The notes under the pieces are model-generated. The model did no database searches. It was not told the DNA's origin and saw nothing but the letters and a program-made list of their open reading frames with translations. Shown piece after piece: positions 51 through 8,014 of a stretch of DNA of 8,014 nt. Source of the DNA: Naegleria gruberi (lineage: Eukaryota); the NCBI GenBank assembly GCA_000004985.1, contig GG739057.1; one strand, written 5' to 3'. The position numbers and the translations under genes were made by a program. The number at the start of each line of letters is the position of its first letter. Position 1 is the stretch's first letter.

Positions 51-92
51 AATTATTTGTTGTATTATTTAAATTATTTGTTGTATTATTTA
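51..92. repeat. Perfect tandem duplication of a 21-bp unit, aattatttgttgtattattta (51-71 and 72-92). It lies in the 3' flank of the minus-strand ORF. The complement of the ORF's TAA stop is the last 3 nt of copy 2 (90-92).
   Basis: Direct reading: the two copies are identical and adjacent. Confidence 0.85.
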
Positions 93-1490
93 ATTATTAA
101 ATTTAGTATTATTAATATAAATAGAACAATTATTTCTAGATGGAAATATAATATTATCCATATCTTCATAAACATCAACAAATGAATGATCTAAATATAA
201 AATATCCCATGAAGATTTAATAATTAAAGTTAAATCCTTATTTTGTATATGAAAATTATCCAATTCACTTTGTGTCATTAATCTAGCATCATTGATCCAA
301 AATTTATTTGGATATCTTAAAAATGTAAATAATTCTGAAAATCTAAATGAAATTCTATTAGCAGTTCTTAATATATTTGTACCTTGTGAAATATTATTAA
401 TTGCAATAAAAGCAGATTTAGAACTTAATTGCATATCAATAAAAAACATTGTAATACATAAAATTGTAATAATAATTGTAATTAAAACAACTATTGATAT
501 ACTTGATTGAGGTTTTGATAAATAATTAATTTGTTTAATATCAATTTCTTTATCTATTTTTTTATCTAATAATTGATAAATTTTACCAAATATATCTTTA
601 CTAATTGTATTTGATATAAATTTAATACTTGATCTTAAATGTCTTAAATTATATAATGAAATAACAACAACTGTTGCAGCACATATAATATAAATAGAAA
701 TTGAAATTGAATAATAAATAATAAATTGATTTGATAAATTTGAAACTAATTGTTGATTTCTATTTAAAAATAAATCACAATATGCATCATAGGCATTTGA
801 ATGTTCTTTTCTATTTGACCAATAAAACATAAAATCTGAATTTATACTTGTTTGTTGATATAAATCTAAATTTGTATATTCTAAATAATTATTTGTATAT
901 TTAATTAATAAATCTGTAATTTCAGAAATGGATGAATTTCTACTTTGTGTATAATTTAAAGGTGATTTTGATATATTTGTATAATATAATACAGGTGAAT
1001 ATAATATATATATTGTATTTCTATAATCTTTTACCATTTCATTTGTAAATTTATTAATTGCTATATCTGTCAATTCTTTTAAAACATTATTATATAAATG
1101 TAATCTATTTTTATGTTCTTGATTAAATACATCAATAGATTGTATTGATGTTAATATATTTGTTGAATTTAATATATTTGATTTATATTTATCAAATAAA
1201 TAAATAAAATTTTGTTGAGTTCTAACTTCTCTTAATAAAAATCTAGGAATTGCTGTTGGCATACAATGATAATATGAAAATTGAATATTACTTGTCATTT
1301 CTTTTGAAAAACTAATACTCATTCCAATTCCAATAGTTAATACTATAAATGATAATATTGATAATATTATAAAAAATATTAAATGTGTTACATGATTTGT
1401 TGCTCTATTTAATGATGTTCTAAATTGATATTCTTTTTTTTGATATTGTGAATTTTCAATTCCATCAAAATCAGAATTATTTTCTAACAT
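90..1490 (-). CDS. Hypothetical membrane protein, 466 aa. Predicted layout: a short cytosolic N-terminus, TM1 (HLIFFIILSILSFIVLTIGIGMSI), a loop of about 210 aa with many N-x-S/T sequons, TM2 (FIIYYSISISIYIICAATVVVISLYNL), TM3 (ISIVVLITIIITILCITMFFI), then a C-terminal region of about 110 aa.
   Basis: A 1.4 kb open frame in roughly 80% AT DNA, where stop codons are otherwise very frequent. Codon usage is Dictyostelium-like (tta, aat, ggt, cca, tct). The ATG sits in an A-rich context (aatgaaATG). The hydrophobic stretches are read from the translation. No recognisable catalytic motif was found. Confidence 0.6.
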   Translation of the reverse strand: MLENNSDFDGIENSQYQKKEYQFRTSLNRATNHVTHLIFFIILSILSFIVLTIGIGMSISFSKEMTSNIQFSYYHCMPTAIPRFLLREVRTQQNFIYLFDKYKSNILNSTNILTSIQSIDVFNQEHKNRLHLYNNVLKELTDIAINKFTNEMVKDYRNTIYILYSPVLYYTNISKSPLNYTQSRNSSISEITDLLIKYTNNYLEYTNLDLYQQTSINSDFMFYWSNRKEHSNAYDAYCDLFLNRNQQLVSNLSNQFIIYYSISISIYIICAATVVVISLYNLRHLRSSIKFISNTISKDIFGKIYQLLDKKIDKEIDIKQINYLSKPQSSISIVVLITIIITILCITMFFIDMQLSSKSAFIAINNISQGTNILRTANRISFRFSELFTFLRYPNKFWINDARLMTQSELDNFHIQNKDLTLIIKSSWDILYLDHSFVDVYEDMDNIIFPSRNNCSIYINNTKFNN

Positions 1491-1577
1491 TTCATTATAA
1501 TATATTATTTAATGTAATATTATTTAAATTATTAAAATATGTATCATTTGTATTATTATTATTATTAGTATTTAAAT
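1491..1577 (-). other. An 87-bp spacer of about 95% AT between two same-frame ORFs. In the shared frame it contains four further stop codons. On the minus strand it has no GT dinucleotide and no AG, so it is not a canonical intron. It is either a very short intergenic region between tandem genes or an unresolved gene-structure or assembly problem.
   Basis: The reverse complement was translated by hand. 3599-1490 = 2109 = 3 x 703, so the two ORFs share a frame. Stops seen: taa, taa, taa, taa. The plus strand has no C across 1561-1660, so there is no GT on the minus strand there. Confidence 0.5.
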
Positions 1578-3599
1578 TTATATTATTATTATTATTAATA
1601 TTATTGAATTATTTATTATTTTATTATTAATATTATTATTTGAATTATTTAAATTAAAATTTGGAACAATTCTTTTTGTTTTTTTCTTTTTAAATTGTTT
1701 TTTAAATTGATTATTTGATAAAACTTGTTGATTTGATTGTAAATATAAAGTAGTAACTTTTTTAGATTCTTCTTCTTCAATAGAAGAGGCTTCATCATAC
1801 ATGTCAAAAGCCTTTTCCTTTTCAAATTTAATTTCTTCTAAATATTTAGCAAATGTTCTTAAAACAGTCTTATTATTACCATAATTAGCAATTAAACCAT
1901 TAAATATAATATCACATTCTCTTGTTAGAGAAGTTATTTGTTTGTTTAAACTTTCAATCTTATTAATTGAAATTGATTCTTGTAACATTTCTTTCCAAAA
2001 TGCTTTATGTAATGTCATGATTACAAAATGTTTCTTTTCTAATTTTAGTAATATATGTTTAATATCTAATACATTTCTACCATCTAAATCAATTAATGAT
2101 TCAATTTCTTTATTTCTTTCTAATAACCATAAACGTTGTAAAAAATTAGGTGATGATTTTCTACCTTTTTTTAATAATAATAATGCTTTTGTACATCCAT
2201 CTTGATCATTTAAATAATTTCCTAATAAAATTGATGAAATTAATAAAATATAAAAATTTTGAAATGTTTTTTGTGATGATAATCCCTTTACAAAACTTTT
2301 ACTAATTTCCAAATCATTTTCATTATTTTTTAAACATTTTGTACTAAATTTTAAATATAAATATAAATAATTTGTTAATTTTAAATCTTCAATTTGTTGT
2401 AAAATTGAACATGATTCTCTTTCAATTACATTTAATAAATCTTCATTTTCCATTTTAGATTCTGCATGATTTATAATTAAATTTTTAATTTGTGTTAATT
2501 TAATTTTTAAATAAATTTCAAATCCAATTAATCCAATTATAAAAAATAATAAAATACTACCAATATGCATACCAATTAATCCTAATCCAATATTATAATC
2601 TTTTTCAATATTAACATATATAGATATAATACCAGATATAGCACTTCCAATTGTAGCACAATTTACTCCAAAATAAATTGAATTTTCTAATCTATTATAA
2701 AATGGAATTGTAAATAAAAAATAAATTGTTAATAAAAATCTCATAATTAAAAATAAACTAGCTTGAATAATTAAATATTCTTTAGATACTATATTTAGTA
2801 ATAAATAAAATACTTGTTGTGATAAAATATCTAATAAATAAGTTGTAATATTATAACTATTAAATATTGTTTTACTTTTAACATTTTTATCTGTTATAGT
2901 AAATACAGTTATAATTAAACTTAAATTCATAATTATAAATGAAATACATGCAATTACCATAAATAATAAATTAATATTTCCATAACAAGCAATATTTGGA
3001 TATCTATATAAAACTTGTTTAGGAGTTGCAATTGACATTTCTTGTAAAATAACATTACTTGAATAATCACAATTTAAATATCCTAATAATAACCATGAAA
3101 TTGGTAAATGAAAAAATCCAATAATTCCATTTATAATTCTTGTTACTTGTTTAATTTTATTCCAATATTTACTCATTGTATATACACTTCTATATGATAT
3201 TAATAATAATATAAATTGTAATACAATTATTGTAAATATTATAGATGATAATATTATTGATACTATATATGGTAAGTAATCAAATCCAAATGTAATTGGA
3301 AAATTTAATGATCTTGCAATCCATTGTCCATATTCACCATAATTATATGTTGGTTGAATACCCATTACTAATATAGACCATGTAAAATATGATATTAAAA
3401 TTATATTTTTTAAAGTTTCCTTTTTTTTAGATTTTTCATTTAAATTTTGTAATGATAATAAAAATAGAAATAAACGTTCTTCAAATTTAGTAAATAATGA
3501 TATTTTATAAAAATCAGAAATTGAATTTGTACTATTAGATATCATACTACCTGTTTCATTTCTATATTCAAAATATGATTCATTCATACCATTATTCAT
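1578..3599 (-). CDS. Hypothetical multi-pass membrane protein. At least 8 hydrophobic helices fall in the first ~400 residues. They are followed by a soluble region of about 270 aa with charged and coiled-coil-like stretches (KMENEDLLNVIERESCSILQQIEDLKL) and a Lys/Asn-rich tail. The N-terminus is probably further upstream, see 3596-3940.
   Basis: A 2 kb ORF in AT-rich DNA with Dictyostelium-like codon usage. The TM segments are read from the translation. No Walker, cyclase or kinase motifs were seen. Confidence 0.65.
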   Translation of the reverse strand: MNNGMNESYFEYRNETGSMISNSTNSISDFYKISLFTKFEERLFLFLLSLQNLNEKSKKKETLKNIILISYFTWSILVMGIQPTYNYGEYGQWIARSLNFPITFGFDYLPYIVSIILSSIIFTIIVLQFILLLISYRSVYTMSKYWNKIKQVTRIINGIIGFFHLPISWLLLGYLNCDYSSNVILQEMSIATPKQVLYRYPNIACYGNINLLFMVIACISFIIMNLSLIITVFTITDKNVKSKTIFNSYNITTYLLDILSQQVFYLLLNIVSKEYLIIQASLFLIMRFLLTIYFLFTIPFYNRLENSIYFGVNCATIGSAISGIISIYVNIEKDYNIGLGLIGMHIGSILLFFIIGLIGFEIYLKIKLTQIKNLIINHAESKMENEDLLNVIERESCSILQQIEDLKLTNYLYLYLKFSTKCLKNNENDLEISKSFVKGLSSQKTFQNFYILLISSILLGNYLNDQDGCTKALLLLKKGRKSSPNFLQRLWLLERNKEIESLIDLDGRNVLDIKHILLKLEKKHFVIMTLHKAFWKEMLQESISINKIESLNKQITSLTRECDIIFNGLIANYGNNKTVLRTFAKYLEEIKFEKEKAFDMYDEASSIEEEESKKVTTLYLQSNQQVLSNNQFKKQFKKKKTKRIVPNFNLNNSNNNINNKIINNSIILIIIII

Positions 3600-3940
3600 A
3601 TTAGGATCACTTGATATATTTGATAATCTTCTATTATTAATATTAATACTATTATTATTATTATTATTATTATGATTATTATTATTAATAATAATGTATT
3701 ATTTATATGATGAGGTGAATTAATATGGTTAGTATTTGTATTATTATTAATATTAACATANTTTGGATGATTTAAATTAATAGTTGGTATTTGTGTATTA
3801 CTTGATGATGTTGTAATTGCTCCACTAATAACCAATTTACTTCCACCATTATTAATAGGATTGGAGGAGGAGGGTTGCTGACCACCATTACTAGTAATGA
3901 CAGGAGGAGTACTAGTTACGGCGAATTGAACACCATTCAT
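3596..3940 (-). CDS. Probable N-terminal coding part of the same membrane-protein gene (MNGVQFAVTSTPPVITSNGGQQPSSSNP...HINSPHHINN). It is in a different frame from 1578-3599. The frames meet inside an (aat)n poly-Asn tract and differ by -1/+2, which is consistent with a single-nucleotide indel. An ambiguous base (n) lies nearby at 3761.
   Basis: This segment is GC-richer and has good codon usage (ggt, cct, act, caa). The ATG is in an A-rich context (aagaATGaat). The 1578-3599 frame stays open upstream of its first Met, as ...YIIINNNNHNNNNNNNSININNRRLSNISSDPN-M, up to a stop at 3699-3701. The only GT..AG pair in the overlap region is 19 nt apart, too short for an intron. Confidence 0.45.
   Translation of the reverse strand: MNGVQFAVTSTPPVITSNGGQQPSSSNPINNGGSKLVISGAITTSSSNTQIPTINLNHPXYVNINNNTNTNHINSPHHINNTLLLIIIIIIIIIIIIVLILIIEDYQIYQVILI
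3640..3692. repeat. (att)n trinucleotide microsatellite on the plus strand, which is (aat)n on the minus strand. It encodes poly-Asn in the 1578-3599 frame and poly-Ile in the 3596-3940 frame.
   Basis: Direct reading. This is the typical Dictyostelium coding Asn repeat and a hotspot for indel errors. Confidence 0.8.
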
Positions 3941-4102
3941 TCTTACTATTTCTTAGAGAAGTTGTAGTAGAGATGATGCTAGTACTAATGATGATTGTCT
4001 AATTATGAATGCTTCTTCGTAGGAGTATTAGAGTGAATTTATTGTATAAGTTCTTCTTCAGTATTGCTGGGTAATTAGTAACAAGTAACAAATTGTACAC
4101 GT

Positions 4103-4114
4103 TTTGGCGCGAAA
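4103..4114. promoter_or_regulatory. Perfect palindromic E2F-type site, TTTGGCGCGAAA. This is the reverse complement of the classic DHFR and adenovirus-E2 TTTCGCGCCAAA. It lies about 165 bp upstream of the minus-strand ATG at 3940.
   Basis: The 12-mer is read directly at 4103-4114 within cacgTTTGGCGCGAAAtatt. A GC-only hexamer is very rare in this sequence context. Confidence 0.45.
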
Positions 4115-5191
4115 TATTCTCTTTTTTTTAAGGATTTCAAATATTCAAAAGAAGTGTATTGGCATCTATTTAACGACAATAAACCTCAAAATCGGAAGAG
4201 ACCAATTCATTGAGTATACTTGTTTGGATTCACGAATCATATTTGCTTCGGCACTTTAAGACCAATCAAAGAATTCATTATCAATAAGGATGAGGTGGTA
4301 GTCAGTTCAAGGCGGTTATTAAAACCTCCTTAGAATTGGATTTAAAATTCTTTCCTTTTGCCTAAAAATCTATACTTGAATGCATTATGAAATATATCAT
4401 GATTAACTTTTGATTGAAATAACTCATGTAACATGAAAAGTCAATGATTAAGGTTTAAATAGTTGTACCATTTGAATTGATCAACACTATAATGTTATCA
4501 ATAAATATTCAATCTCCCATTCTGACGCATTACTCTTAATAGAACTTTGAATATTCGTACGGAACATTGTCAGTCTTAATAAGAATATGTGTCATATTGT
4601 TTGTCCACACTATTGAAACAATGTATTATTATACCATTAATCAAACACACTTTATGTCATATAGATTGAACAATAACTCTTAATATTATTATTAAAGAAT
4701 GAAATTCATAAAGATAAAACACCATTTTCTATTAATTTTGAATGTTAACAATAAATATAATATGGTTTGATGATGATTCTCTTAATTAACTTGTAATTCT
4801 CTGAATATATTATTTTTCAATCACCAAAATTAAATATAGTATTACAATAAACATTACTAATATGGATGTTATAATATTAAAGTATAATATATTTACAAAT
4901 ATATTGAAAAAGATTCTTCTGCACTGTTTTTCAACTACATTACAACCAATCCTGTATAGAGATAGAGAGAGTGATTCATCACCGTCATTATTCTATCTCT
5001 CTCTGATATATGAAACTAACATTCAGTTCTACTGTAAATCAGAGGTCTTTGCCCTAAATGATCTCCTTAATAGTGCTCCACATTACAAACTCTCTCTCTA
5101 AGAGTCCATTAAAAAAGTGAGTGAACTGTTATTAAGGAATTGAGTACAAGAACACACTCCATTATATTCTTTCACTCTATAATATTTGTAT

Positions 5192-5215
5192 TATAAATCT
5201 CTGATAAAGAGATTT
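5192..5215 (+). promoter_or_regulatory. TATA-like box tataaat (5192-5198) overlapping a perfect 8-5-8 inverted repeat, AAATCTCT-gataa-AGAGATTT (5195-5215). The spacer carries a GATA core (tGATAAa). It is about 115-135 bp upstream of the putative histidine kinase ATG at 5329. The 9-mer TCTCTGATA also occurs at 5000-5008.
   Basis: Direct reading. revcomp(aaatctct) = agagattt. Confidence 0.4.
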
Positions 5216-5328
5216 TAAACAACATCATCAATCACCATCATCAATTATCATCTCAACAAGGAAACAAAATACTACATAATTAGCAATCATAATTTCTATT
5301 TTCCATTGTTGTGAACACACATTATAAA

Positions 5329-5374
5329 ATGTCTAGAAGGAATTCATCATCATTCAGTGGTGGTGGTGGTGTAG
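5329..5374 (+). CDS. Putative first coding nucleotides of the histidine kinase gene (MSRRNSSSFSGGGGV...). It runs straight into the N gap.
   Basis: ATG in aaaATG context downstream of a TATA-like box. An open frame with ggt-rich Gly codons. Its continuity with the exon at 6870 cannot be shown across the gap. Confidence 0.3.
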
Positions 5375-6782
5375 NNNNNNNNNNNNNNNNNNNNNNNNNN
5401 NNNNNNNNNNNNNNNNNNNNNNNNNNNNNNNNNNNNNNNNNNNNNNNNNNNNNNNNNNNNNNNNNNNNNNNNNNNNNNNNNNNNNNNNNNNNNNNNNNNN
5501 NNNNNNNNNNNNNNNNNNNNNNNNNNNNNNNNNNNNNNNNNNNNNNNNNNNNNNNNNNNNNNNNNNNNNNNNNNNNNNNNNNNNNNNNNNNNNNNNNNNN
5601 NNNNNNNNNNNNNNNNNNNNNNNNNNNNNNNNNNNNNNNNNNNNNNNNNNNNNNNNNNNNNNNNNNNNNNNNNNNNNNNNNNNNNNNNNNNNNNNNNNNN
5701 NNNNNNNNNNNNNNNNNNNNNNNNNNNNNNNNNNNNNNNNNNNNNNNNNNNNNNNNNNNNNNNNNNNNNNNNNNNNNNNNNNNNNNNNNNNNNNNNNNNN
5801 NNNNNNNNNNNNNNNNNNNNNNNNNNNNNNNNNNNNNNNNNNNNNNNNNNNNNNNNNNNNNNNNNNNNNNNNNNNNNNNNNNNNNNNNNNNNNNNNNNNN
5901 NNNNNNNNNNNNNNNNNNNNNNNNNNNNNNNNNNNNNNNNNNNNNNNNNNNNNNNNNNNNNNNNNNNNNNNNNNNNNNNNNNNNNNNNNNNNNNNNNNNN
6001 NNNNNNNNNNNNNNNNNNNNNNNNNNNNNNNNNNNNNNNNNNNNNNNNNNNNNNNNNNNNNNNNNNNNNNNNNNNNNNNNNNNNNNNNNNNNNNNNNNNN
6101 NNNNNNNNNNNNNNNNNNNNNNNNNNNNNNNNNNNNNNNNNNNNNNNNNNNNNNNNNNNNNNNNNNNNNNNNNNNNNNNNNNNNNNNNNNNNNNNNNNNN
6201 NNNNNNNNNNNNNNNNNNNNNNNNNNNNNNNNNNNNNNNNNNNNNNNNNNNNNNNNNNNNNNNNNNNNNNNNNNNNNNNNNNNNNNNNNNNNNNNNNNNN
6301 NNNNNNNNNNNNNNNNNNNNNNNNNNNNNNNNNNNNNNNNNNNNNNNNNNNNNNNNNNNNNNNNNNNNNNNNNNNNNNNNNNNNNNNNNNNNNNNNNNNN
6401 NNNNNNNNNNNNNNNNNNNNNNNNNNNNNNNNNNNNNNNNNNNNNNNNNNNNNNNNNNNNNNNNNNNNNNNNNNNNNNNNNNNNNNNNNNNNNNNNNNNN
6501 NNNNNNNNNNNNNNNNNNNNNNNNNNNNNNNNNNNNNNNNNNNNNNNNNNNNNNNNNNNNNNNNNNNNNNNNNNNNNNNNNNNNNNNNNNNNNNNNNNNN
6601 NNNNNNNNNNNNNNNNNNNNNNNNNNNNNNNNNNNNNNNNNNNNNNNNNNNNNNNNNNNNNNNNNNNNNNNNNNNNNNNNNNNNNNNNNNNNNNNNNNNN
6701 NNNNNNNNNNNNNNNNNNNNNNNNNNNNNNNNNNNNNNNNNNNNNNNNNNNNNNNNNNNNNNNNNNNNNNNNNNNNNNNNNN
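5375..6782. other. Assembly gap or masked region of 1408 Ns.
   Basis: Direct reading. The track ORFs spanning it are translation artifacts. Confidence 0.99.
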
Positions 6783-6869
6783 CAATTTTTTAGATTAATA
6801 ATATCAGATATAAATCCAAGTTATTCATGGATGACGATTGGATTTATGGCAAGTACAGTTCATAATTGA

Positions 6870-7181
6870 TCATCATTTATATTACATAATTCAATTGCAT
6901 TAGGTGATAATGGATTATCAACTGCATTATGGACAATTTTACCATTAAATATTTTATCAATTGGTACTAGTTTAATTTTATCTTTATATTTTAATAGATG
7001 GTCTGAATCATTTGGTGTTTTAACAATGTTAACTATATTTAATTTAGTTTTTAATACTACTTCTTATAAATTAATGGAAAAATTAAATATGATGAATATA
7101 ATGACTGGAAGATTAAAAGATGCAAATAAGAGTAAAAATTCATTAGTTTCTTCTATTTCACATGAATTTCGTTCTCCTTTA
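6870..7181 (+). CDS. Histidine kinase exon, partial at its 5' end, with an unresolved boundary. It contains a predicted TM helix (LSTALWTILPLNILSIGTSLILSLYF), a linker of about 40 aa (MEKLNMMNIMTGRLKDANKSKNSLVSS), and the HisKA H-box ISHEFRSPL with the phosphorylatable His at 7161-7163.
   Basis: H-box matches the consensus SHELRTPL. The frame is open from 6870. An in-frame TGA lies just upstream at 6867-6869. Confidence 0.8.
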
Positions 7182-7281
7182 GTAGGTTTTTTTATTTAAT
7201 ATTTAATTAATTTAAATTTAATTTAATAATTTAATATTTTAATTTATTTTAATATTTTAATTTATATTTAATATTTTAAAG
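7182..7281 (+). other. Spliceosomal intron of 100 bp. Donor is GTAGGT and acceptor is AAAG, with about 95% AT. It is phase 0 and placed immediately after the H-box ...SPL.
   Basis: Without splicing, the frame hits TAA 5 codons after PL. Splicing 7181 to 7282 gives PL|MSISGCIELLLDTKLTEDQIQYLKTI. This aligns residue-for-residue with the canonical HisKA sequence PL-NGIIGMSELLLDTxLTxEQ. Confidence 0.8.
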
Positions 7282-8014
7282 ATGAGTATAAGTGGATGTA
7301 TAGAATTATTATTAGATACAAAATTAACAGAAGATCAAATACAATATTTAAAAACTATTGGATGTTGTAGTTCAATATTATTAACATTAATAGAAGATAT
7401 ATTACAATATTCTAAATTAGAAAAAGGTAATTTAGAAATTGCCAATTCAATTGAAGATTCTTCAAATCATTCTATATTTTCATTAGGTGAATGTATTGAA
7501 CATGTCAAAAGTATTACAACTACCTATGCTCAAAATTTTAATGTTAAAATTAATGTACAAATTAGTAAATTTATTCCTACTTTTGTAATTGGTGAAAGTG
7601 TTAGATTACAACAAGTTTTAATTAATTTATTAACAAATGCTGTTAAAGCATCAAATTCAAATGGTATTGTTACTTTAAAAGTTGAAACTATTGAAGATTT
7701 AAATGAAATTAATTTAAATAATAATATAAATTTAAATGAAAATAATAATAATTTAAATAATAATAATTTAAATTTAAATATAAATGATAAAAAACAATTA
7801 GTAACATTTAAAATAATAGATAATGGTAAAGGTATACCTAAAAATGTACAAGAATTATTATTTAAACCATTTTTTAGTGGATTTATAAATTCATCAACAA
7901 ATTCCAAATCAGCAGTGATGGGAACTGGATTAGGATTATCAATTGCTAAAAAAATAGTTAATTATAATTTTAAAGGTGAATTATTATATGAATCTAATTA
8001 TATACCACCTAATA
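7282..8014 (+). CDS. Histidine kinase exon. It covers the remainder of the HisKA dimerisation helix and an HATPase_c domain. N-box LINLLTNAVKAS has its Asn at 7636-7638. G1 box is IIDNGKGIP, 7819 onward. F box is FKPFF. G2 box is GTGLGLSIAKKIV, 7921 onward. The exon is truncated by the window end, and any receiver domain would lie downstream.
   Basis: The translation has no stops through 8013 and all canonical sensor-kinase ATP-lid motifs are present in order. The specific Dhk paralog cannot be assigned from this fragment. Confidence 0.9.
   Translation, partial: MSISGCIELLLDTKLTEDQIQYLKTIGCCSSILLTLIEDILQYSKLEKGNLEIANSIEDSSNHSIFSLGECIEHVKSITTTYAQNFNVKINVQISKFIPTFVIGESVRLQQVLINLLTNAVKASNSNGIVTLKVETIEDLNEINLNNNINLNENNNNLNNNNLNLNINDKKQLVTFKIIDNGKGIPKNVQELLFKPFFSGFINSSTNSKSAVMGTGLGLSIAKKIVNYNFKGELLYESNYIPPN
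7699..7794 (+). repeat. Asn/Leu-rich low-complexity insertion (LNEINLNNNINLNENNNNLNNNNLNLNINDKK) inside the ATP-binding domain, between the N-box and the G1 box.
   Basis: Direct translation. The nucleotide sequence is built from aat/tta repeats. Confidence 0.8.

What the first reader, a model, noticed from the sequence alone, without database searches (positions are those of the whole stretch)
4103..4114. Canonical palindromic E2F site TTTGGCGCGAAA in the promoter of the membrane-protein gene
E2F/DP factors bind TTTSSCGC. The overlapping palindrome TTTCGCGCCAAA / TTTGGCGCGAAA is the textbook high-affinity site from the DHFR and adenovirus E2 promoters. Finding the exact 12-mer, including a GGCGCG core, about 165 bp upstream of an ATG is unlikely by chance. 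Dictyostelids have an E2F/DP/Rb (rblA) pathway. The site predicts cell-cycle or Rb-dependent regulation of the downstream multi-pass membrane protein, or bidirectional influence on the kinase gene about 1.2 kb away.
Basis: partly seen in the sequence, partly recalled or inferred. Interest (0 to 1): 0.55.

Follow-up and report, generated by a model that had tools for sequence, protein, structure and literature searches.

The report
Conserved E2F-type site upstream of Naegleria cyclase
The 12-base E2F motif is real, and the same type of motif sits just upstream of related membrane cyclase genes in several Naegleria-like amoebae, so it is probably a working control element; but the DNA is labelled Naegleria gruberi, not a slime mould.

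Summary
The 12-mer TTTGGCGCGAAA is at 4103-4114, 163-174 bp upstream of the first ATG (3940) of the minus-strand gene. It is identical to the mammalian DHFR E2F element.

The window is a whole 8014-bp contig annotated as Naegleria gruberi, not a dictyostelid. The "membrane protein" is the N-terminal ~1250 aa of a heterolobosean membrane adenylate/guanylate cyclase.

I fetched nine independent homologous loci from Naegleria-like assemblies.
- Six carry a sense-strand TTTSSCG[CG] octamer 104-450 bp upstream of the ATG.
- That is 6 hits in 4.3 kb of upstream sequence against 4 in the other 90 kb (binomial 1.7e-6).
- None of 5000 simulations reached six loci.
- The promoters are otherwise unalignable, and none of the other hits lies upstream of another gene.

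N. gruberi encodes E2F, DP, a DEL-type E2F and RB. An E2F/DP-type site conserved across this cyclase family is the best reading (confidence about 0.6). Binding and regulation are untested.

One caveat is unresolved. The contig is a compositional outlier: its genes have GC3 of 3-5%, against 32% in a normal N. gruberi-like paralogue. It also has frameshifts, an in-frame TGA and a 1.4-kb gap. This copy could therefore be a relic, a contaminant or a misassembly.

The parts
4103..4114 (.). E2F-type 12-mer TTTGGCGCGAAA, which reads TTTCGCGCCAAA in the orientation of the cyclase gene. It is two overlapping inverted octamers.
   Evidence: Identical to the DHFR E2F element.
4107..4114 (-). Gene-sense half-site TTTCGCGC(C), 174 bp upstream of the ATG. 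This is the orientation shared by all six homologous promoters that carry a site.
   Evidence: The same TTTCGCGCC occurs in L009 at -254.
4103..4110 (+). Antisense half-site TTTGGCGC. It points towards the + strand gene.
3941..5328 (.). Intergenic or promoter region between two divergent genes. It is 28% GC and holds 14 of the window's 18 CpGs. It has no long ORF, tRNA, Rfam match, repeat family or vector match.
3596..3940 (-). First coding segment of the cyclase gene, with ATG at 3940. There is a frameshift in the (ATT)n run near 3690 and an 'n' at 3761. G/C-ending codons drop from 9 of 30 to about 3 of 70 after about 3855.
   Evidence: This is the N-terminus of NCBI model P0122.
1578..3599 (-). 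Multi-pass membrane block plus TPR_TmcB domain of the cyclase gene (673-aa ORF).
   Evidence: Pfam PF25474, 7e-17. It is 40-43% identical to N. gruberi P0267 and P0123 and to metagenomic P0121.
90..1490 (-). Second membrane and extracellular block of the same gene (466-aa ORF, same frame as 1578-3599). The PAS and cyclase domains would lie beyond window position 1.
   Evidence: 40-47% identity to residues ~530-1150 of P0123, P0121 and P0267. Domain order is taken from P0121.
5329..5374 (+). Possible start (ATG) of the divergently transcribed gene. It runs into the assembly gap.
   Evidence: Its link to the kinase is not shown.
5375..6782 (.). Assembly gap (run of N).
6783..8014 (+). Histidine kinase fragment (HisKA + HATPase_c) with a 100-nt intron at 7182-7281 and an in-frame TGA at 6867.

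Best explanation
The 12-mer is an E2F/DP-type cis-regulatory site in the promoter of a membrane adenylate/guanylate cyclase gene of a Naegleria-type (heterolobosean) genome. It belongs to a class of such sites kept by selection in front of many members of this cyclase family.

Proposed mechanism:
1. A winged-helix E2F-DP heterodimer, or the two-domain DEL/E2F7-8-type protein, contacts the central CGCG/GCGC core through its RRxYD recognition helix. The T-run sets the orientation.
2. RB bound to E2F would repress the gene, and release of RB would allow activation. Expression of these cyclases would then be tied to the cell's proliferation or differentiation state.

Shown: the sequence, its position, the family-wide positional and orientational enrichment, and the presence of E2F, DP, DEL and RB genes in N. 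gruberi.

Inferred: that those proteins are what bind it, and the direction and timing of regulation.
For: 1. Exact match to the consensus and to the DHFR E2F element.
2. It lies 163-174 bp upstream of the first ATG.
3. Nine independent homologous loci were fetched by protein identity. Six have a sense-strand TTTSSCG[CG] 104-450 bp upstream of the ATG:
- L001 TTTGGCGC at -329
- L002 TTTGGCGG at -450
- L003 TTTGGCGGCCAAA at -274
- L007 TTTCCCGC at -194
- L008 TTTGGCGC at -104
- L009 TTTCGCGC at -254
4. Counts: 6 hits in 4332 bp upstream against 4 in the remaining 90,141 bp (binomial 1.7e-6). For strict TTTSSCGC the counts are 4 against 1 (2e-5).
5. Markov-1 simulations of the upstream regions: 0 of 5000 reach 6 loci (mean 0.45). 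For the strict motif, 0 of 5000 reach 4 loci (mean 0.22).
6. An unbiased 7-mer scan ranks TTTGGCG first (p = 1e-5 among 3620 7-mers).
7. The upstream regions share no other alignable sequence, so the octamer is an isolated conserved element.
8. All six sites have the same orientation relative to the gene.
9. The four hits outside these upstream regions all lie inside coding sequence. No promoter of another gene in the loci has one (with the gene tables).
10. N. gruberi E2F (KRRIYD), DP (RRRVYD), DEL and RB are in the source data of Medina et al. 2016. The E2F and DP sequences hit Pfam E2F_TDP at 1e-28 and 4e-19.
11. TTTGGCGG is itself a documented E2F site, in the MYB promoter (PMC5622404).
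Against: - There is no binding or expression data for any of these genes.
- Two informative paralogues lack the motif (L006, L010). L005 is uninformative because its upstream region runs off the contig.
- TSS positions are unknown, so distances are measured only from called ATGs.
- Several positive loci come from the same assemblies (L002, L003 and L008 from SRR29240419), so they are paralogues of one genome and not independent species.
- I could not fetch canonical E2F targets (PCNA, MCM, RNR) from any Naegleria genome, so it is unknown whether the motif marks them as well.
- Cyclases are not classical E2F targets.
- The window contig is suspect. Its genes have GC3 of 3-5% against 32% in a normal N. 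gruberi-like paralogue. It has frameshifts, an in-frame TGA, an 'n' and a gap. No independent assembly of it was seen. This copy of the gene may therefore be decayed, foreign or misassembled.
Confidence: 0.6

Rival explanations
1. Chance match. A GC-richer intergenic stretch happens to contain the 12-mer and it does nothing.
For: By my arithmetic a genome of about 41 Mb at 33-35% GC should contain about two exact copies by chance. The first stage scanned many windows for many motifs. Two paralogue promoters (L006, L010) have no such site.
Against: The local expectation is 5e-6 for the 12-mer and 0.005 for TTTSSCGC. The same consensus recurs in the same orientation and position range in 6 of 9 homologous promoters, with 0 of 5000 simulations matching.
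Confidence: 0.1
2. A real conserved cis-element read by something other than E2F/DP. Candidates are another GC-core-binding factor or a family-specific core-promoter element that only resembles the E2F consensus.
For: Only sequence evidence links it to E2F. The element was seen only in front of cyclase genes, which are not classical E2F targets. I could not examine any canonical E2F target in Naegleria. Unrelated factors can share this site: yeast SBF binds GCGCGAAA (Medina et al. 2016).
Against: All seven sites fit TTTSSCG[CG], including the T-run and the variable SS positions, which is the E2F pattern. The E2F/DP recognition helix RRxYD is intact in the N. gruberi proteins. Medina et al. found no SBF/KilA-N factors outside fungi apart from three stated exceptions, none of them Naegleria.
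Confidence: 0.15
3. The site type is genuine but this copy is not in service. The contig would be a decaying paralogue, a low-coverage contaminant from another heterolobosean, or a chimeric assembly that joins a normal Naegleria promoter fragment to ultra-AT-rich coding DNA.
For: Coding GC3 is 3-5% against 32% in L006, while the intergenic region is 28% GC like normal Naegleria intergenic DNA. The N. gruberi genome is 35% GC (PMC9928731). Codon usage switches sharply about 85 bp into the ORF. There are frameshifts near 3690 and 1490-1580, an in-frame TGA at 6867, an 'n' and a 1.4-kb gap. The clusters of P0001 and P0122 have one member each, and the window ORFs are absent from the 15-billion-protein collection.
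Against: ORFs of 673 and 466 codons in 18% GC DNA are far too long to be unconstrained. The ORF runs through the composition boundary without a stop, and its GC3 is below GC1 and GC2 as in real coding sequence. The closest relatives are N. gruberi paralogues. The site sits at the family-typical distance and orientation from the ATG, which a random chimera would not produce.
Confidence: 0.15

Closest known systems
Overlapping inverted E2F element of the mammalian DHFR promoter (ATTTCGCGCCAAA, TRANSFAC R01928)
   Same: The 12 bases are identical in the gene-sense orientation (ATATTTCGCGCCAAAA in the window). Both lie in the proximal promoter upstream of the coding start.
   Different: The organism is a heterolobosean amoeba and the target is a membrane cyclase, not a nucleotide-synthesis gene. 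Among the homologous promoters only L003 has a comparable overlapping inverted pair (TTTGGCGGCCAAA). The others are single octamers, so the palindrome is not the conserved feature. The DHFR site lies at the transcription start (from memory). The TSS here is unknown.
Single E2F sites TTTSSCGC / TTTGGCGG of animal and plant cell-cycle promoters (e.g. MYB, CDC2)
   Same: Same consensus, promoter-proximal, dependent on the T-run orientation. TTTGGCGG (L002, L003) equals the core of the MYB E2F site.
   Different: The classical regulon is DNA replication, repair and mitosis. Here the element marks a lineage-specific expanded family of sensor cyclases. I could not test whether Naegleria replication genes also carry it.
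Dictyostelium RblA/E2F regulon (Strasser et al. 2012, PMC3386910)
   Same: Another non-animal, non-plant amoeba in which RB/E2F controls S-phase, mitotic and some developmental genes. A consensus E2F element was noted there even in a Tdd-5 transposon.
   Different: It is a different supergroup (Amoebozoa versus Discoba). The window is not dictyostelid. No cyclase family is reported in that regulon in the text I read.

Membership tests
E2F/DP-responsive cis-element | Sequence fits the consensus TTTSSCGC | tested here: met
   TTTGGCGC (+) and TTTCGCGC (-) at 4103-4114. They are the only matches in the window.
E2F/DP-responsive cis-element | Lies in the proximal promoter of a gene | tested here: inconclusive
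   It is 163-174 bp upstream of the first ATG of the ORF and inside the 1388-bp intergenic region. The TSS is unknown and the true start codon is uncertain (frameshift, composition switch).
E2F/DP-responsive cis-element | The organism encodes E2F and DP with an intact RRxYD DNA-recognition helix, plus RB | tested here: met
   NgruE2F (KRRIYD), NgruDP (RRRVYD), NgruDEL and NgruRB are in the source data of Medina et al. 2016. Pfam E2F_TDP hits are 1e-28 and 4e-19. This holds only if the contig is really N. gruberi.
E2F/DP-responsive cis-element | The element is conserved in promoters of homologous genes | tested here: met
   6 of 9 loci are positive (8 are informative). There are 6 hits in 4.3 kb upstream against 4 in 90 kb. 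0 of 5000 simulations match. All share one orientation and the promoters are otherwise unalignable.
E2F/DP-responsive cis-element | Physical binding by E2F/DP (EMSA, ChIP, DAP-seq) | not testable with these tools
   No such data were found for Naegleria.
E2F/DP-responsive cis-element | Cell-cycle- or RB-dependent expression of the downstream gene | not testable with these tools
   No expression data were accessible. Fritz-Laylin & Cande 2010 and Kennard 2025 are not held.
DHFR-type overlapping inverted E2F pair | Two inverted octamers sharing the central CGCG, TTTCGCGCCAAA | tested here: met
   Exact identity.
CDE/CHR (DREAM) bipartite element | A CHR (TTYGAA) 4 nt downstream of a GC-rich CDE | tested here: not met
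   Two TTTGAA motifs (minus strand, 4136-4141 and 4144-4149) lie 22-35 nt on the distal side of the site, not 4 nt downstream. There is no consistent CHR next to the sites in the other loci.
Dictyostelid rblA/E2F target promoter | The sequence comes from a dictyostelid genome | tested here: not met
   The contig is annotated N. gruberi. The closest proteins are Naegleria and Willaertia cyclases.
Transposable element, repeat or ncRNA carrying the motif | Repeat structure, TE ORFs, or a tRNA/Rfam match around the site | tested here: not met
   No tRNA. No Rfam hit at gathering score and only one E = 0.74 hit at the lax threshold. Only short chance-level repeats. No ORF over 98 codons. No plasmid or vector match.

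The most novel reading that the evidence does not exclude
The E2F/DP-RB module, inherited from the last eukaryotic common ancestor, is wired in Heterolobosea to a large lineage-specific family of receptor-type adenylate/guanylate cyclases (TmcB-TPR + PAS + cyclase). If so, this would be the first defined cis-regulatory code and regulon that I could find for Naegleria. It would couple cyclic-nucleotide sensing to the choice between proliferating and differentiating (encystment or flagellate transformation). The regulators of Naegleria cilia-gene induction during flagellate transformation are still unknown (PMC12183034). A second, less likely reading concerns the composition. The 28%-GC, CpG-retaining promoter between two genes with GC3 of 3-5% could be a protected promoter island inside a locally hypermutated or methylated gene pair.
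Probability: 0.4. Interest if true: 0.65.

Novelty: new member of a known kind. Interest (0 to 1): 0.5.

Why it matters
My literature searches found no promoter elements described for Naegleria, a genus that includes the 'brain-eating' N. fowleri. A review states that the factors driving its differentiation programme are unknown (PMC12183034).

If the E2F consensus marks a subset of its 80-plus sensor cyclases (count from PMC9928731), three things follow.
- E2F DNA specificity would be shown to be conserved as far as Discoba.
- There would be a concrete, testable regulon in an organism with few genetic handles.
- There would be a link between cell-cycle status and cyclic-nucleotide signalling.

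The result also corrects the provenance of the window. It flags an 8-kb contig in the reference assembly whose composition does not fit the genome.

Tried and rejected
- **Dictyostelid origin.** Rejected. There is a 100% match to an N. gruberi protein on an 8014-bp contig, and the relatives are heterolobosean.
- **tRNA or ncRNA gene in the GC-richer region.** None found.
- **Transposon or repeat.** There are no repeat families beyond short chance pairs and no long ORFs.
- **Cloning-vector or plasmid contamination of 3941-5374.** No match.
- **Bacterial-type promoter and terminator scan.** Uninformative for a eukaryote.
- **First protein search with the 673-aa ORF.** It failed because low-complexity words saturated the candidate list. 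The alignment search returned only 2 hits for the same reason. The exhaustive representative search solved this.
- **Two scans of JGI metagenome contigs for family members.** Nothing found.
- **N. gruberi NCBI proteins (P0001, P0267, P0123).** They are not on record in the contig index, so N. gruberi reference loci could not be read directly. N. gruberi-like ENA contigs (L006, L007) stood in for them.
- **Independent assembly of the window locus.** The window ORFs are not in the protein collection.
- **CDE/CHR arrangement.** Not met.
- **Shared sequence between the window's intergenic region and the homologous loci, or among the upstream regions.** None at E < 0.05.
- **Expression papers on Naegleria differentiation.** Not held.

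Full report
**1. Observation**

The 12-mer TTTGGCGCGAAA is at 4103-4114. It consists of two overlapping inverted E2F octamers: TTTGGCGC on the + strand and TTTCGCGC on the - strand. These are the only TTSSCGC matches in the window, against 0.03 expected from shuffles. A first-order model of the surrounding 1388-bp intergenic region expects 5e-6 copies of the 12-mer and 0.005 of TTTSSCGC.

The 12-mer is identical to the DHFR E2F element ATTTCGCGCCAAA (TRANSFAC R01928, quoted in PMC2784457; DHFR EMSA oligo in PMC5622404).

By my own arithmetic, a 41-Mb genome of 33-35% GC should contain about two such 12-mers by chance. One hit in a genome-wide scan therefore proves nothing by itself.

**2. What the window is**

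It is not dictyostelid. The kinase fragment at 7282-8013 is 100% identical to 'predicted protein, partial [Naegleria gruberi]' on a contig of exactly 8014 bp. The window is therefore a whole small scaffold of the N. gruberi assembly.

The minus-strand gene is read from three ORFs: 3596-3940, 1578-3599 and 90-1490.
- It has a Pfam TPR_TmcB domain.
- An exhaustive search found its relatives, and they are heterolobosean: N. gruberi, N. fowleri, N. lovaniensis and Willaertia magna proteins of ~1500-1750 aa, several annotated as adenylate/guanylate cyclases.
- The closest are the N. gruberi paralogues P0267 and P0123 and the metagenomic P0121, at 40-47% identity over both ORFs.
- P0121 has the order membrane block, TPR_TmcB, second membrane block, PAS, Guanylate_cyc.

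The window gene is therefore the N-terminal ~1250 aa of such a cyclase, and the catalytic end lies beyond position 1. NCBI model XP_002668458 (NAEGRDRAFT_76630, P0122) sits on this contig.

On the + strand, after a 1.4-kb N gap (5375-6782), lies a HisKA/HATPase_c histidine kinase with a 100-nt intron at 7182-7281. The ATG at 5329 may or may not be its start.

**3. The decisive test: homologous promoters**

I fetched nine independent loci carrying family members from ENA, Logan and JGI assemblies. L004 duplicates L003. A TTTSSCG[CG] octamer lies on the gene-sense strand upstream of the called ATG in six of them:

| Locus | Site | Position relative to ATG |
|---|---|---|
| L001 | TTTGGCGC | -329 |
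| L002 | TTTGGCGG | -450 |
| L003 | TTTGGCGGCCAAA | -274 |
| L007 | TTTCCCGC | -194 |
| L008 | TTTGGCGC | -104 |
| L009 | TTTCGCGC | -254 |

The window's gene-sense half, TTTCGCGCC at -174, is the same 9-mer as in L009.

L006 and L010 have no site. L005's upstream region runs off the contig, so it is uninformative.

The statistics are as follows.
- There are 6 hits in 4332 bp of upstream sequence, against 4 in the other 90,141 bp (binomial 1.7e-6).
- First-order Markov simulations of the upstream regions never reached 6 positive loci in 5000 trials (mean 0.45).
- They never reached 4 strict-positive loci either (mean 0.22).
- An unbiased scan of all 7-mers in the ten upstream regions ranks TTTGGCG first (p = 1e-5 among 3620 tested).

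The upstream regions share no other alignable sequence with each other or with the window. The four hits outside these regions all lie inside coding sequence, so none of the other gene promoters in the loci carries one (with the gene tables).

The element is therefore conserved in position and orientation. In this sample it is specific to the promoters of this cyclase family. The positive loci come from at least four different samples, including N. fowleri-like and N. gruberi-like genomes.

**4. Is the reader of the site plausible?**

The source data of Medina et al. 2016 (eLife, PMC4862756) contain the following N. gruberi proteins:
- an E2F, with recognition helix KRRIYD;
- a DP (RRRVYD);
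- a DEL/E2F7-8-type protein with two such domains;
- an RB.

I confirmed E2F_TDP domains in the E2F and DP sequences (1e-28 and 4e-19). The same paper states that the RRxYD helix contacts the GCGC core and is invariant across eukaryotes.

The likely mechanism is binding of E2F-DP (or DEL) to the CGCG core, with RB-dependent repression or activation. This step is inferred, not shown.

**5. Caveats**

The contig is a compositional outlier.
- Its genes have GC3 of 3-5% and a CpG observed/expected ratio near 0.1 by my count. A normal N. gruberi-like paralogue (L006) has GC3 of 32%. The genome is 35% GC (PMC9928731).
- The intergenic region is 28% GC, like ordinary Naegleria intergenic DNA (the L006 upstream region is 26-29%). 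It holds 14 of the 18 CpGs in the window.
- G/C-ending codons drop from 9 of 30 to about 3 of 70 roughly 85 bp into the ORF.
- There are frameshifts in (ATT)n runs, an 'n', an in-frame TGA at 6867 and a gap.
- No independent assembly of the locus appears in the protein collections.

Against a random chimera: the ORF is continuous across the composition boundary, ORFs of 466 and 673 codons in 18% GC DNA imply selection, and the site lies at the family-typical distance and orientation.

I could not resolve whether this is a low-coverage contaminant, a misassembly, or a locally AT-driven gene pair with a protected promoter.

I also could not read canonical E2F targets in any Naegleria genome. The identity of the binding factor therefore rests on the consensus match and on the presence of the proteins.

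**6. Comparison and verdict**

The site works like, and by sequence is, an E2F element of the DHFR type. Membership in the class 'E2F/DP-responsive element' breaks down as follows.
- Met: consensus, presence of the factor, conservation.
- Inconclusive: promoter position, because the TSS is unknown.
- Untestable here: binding and regulation.

It is not a CDE/CHR element, not part of a transposon or RNA gene, and not a dictyostelid rblA target.

On novelty, the kind (an E2F site) is known. Its conserved association with a heterolobosean cyclase family is, as far as the literature I could search shows, not described.

Confidence is 0.6 that this is a functional E2F-type element of a family-wide class, and the interest score is 0.5.

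Noticed in passing
window 90-3855 and 6783-8014 versus 3856-5374: Composition paradox. The coding DNA has GC3 of 3-5% and almost no CpG, but the intergenic region between the two genes is 28% GC and holds 14 of the 18 CpGs. G/C-ending codons drop from 9/30 to about 3/70 roughly 85 bp into the ORF. A typical N. gruberi-like paralogue (L006) has GC3 of 32% and the genome is 35% GC.
   Followed up: partly
window ~3690, 1490-1580, 3761, 6867, 5375-6782: Signs of a low-quality or decaying sequence. There is a frameshift in an (ATT)n run between the first coding segment and the 673-aa ORF. There are in-frame stops or shifts between the 673-aa and 466-aa ORFs, which share a frame. There is a single 'n', an in-frame TGA in the kinase exon and a 1.4-kb N gap. 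The NCBI model P0122 bridges these with invented introns.
   Followed up: partly
window 4136-4141 and 4144-4149 (minus strand TTTGAA): Two CHR-like TTTGAA hexamers lie 22-35 nt distal to the E2F site in gene orientation. This is not the CDE/CHR spacing. No consistent counterpart occurs in the other loci.
   Followed up: partly
window 4963-4976 / 5087-5100 and 4993-5005; upstream regions of L002, L003, L007, L010: GA/CT-rich tracts (TAGAGAGAGTGATT / AAACTCTCTCTCTA inverted pair; CTATCTCTCTCTGA) lie about 330 bp upstream of the + strand ATG at 5329. The 8-mer ATCTCTCT is the top enriched 8-mer in the family's upstream regions (4 of 10, p = 8e-5). It may be a second promoter motif.
   Followed up: no
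protein P0187 (N. gruberi NAEGRDRAFT_78958): UniRef names this family member 'Uncharacterized protein FM179'. From memory, the FM prefix may refer to the flagellar-motility gene set of the N. gruberi studies. That would hint that some family members change expression during the amoeba-to-flagellate transformation. The source paper was not available.
   Followed up: no
L002 4500-4540: The only other TTCGCGC in L002 lies in ...GGTTCGCGCCTCGCGGGTTCGAATCC. By eye this looks like the 3' part of a tRNA gene, so it is not a promoter site.
   Followed up: no
window 4096-4102: An ACACGT (ACGT-core) motif directly abuts the E2F 12-mer and adds a third CpG. It might be a second factor site.
   Followed up: no
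L003 9727-9739 and 9802-9807: The L003/L004 promoter has an overlapping inverted pair TTTGGCGGCCAAA, the closest analogue of the window's palindrome. A further GGCGCG lies 75 bp downstream. An in-frame ATGATG about 165 bp upstream of the called start suggests the true ATG is closer to the sites.
   Followed up: no
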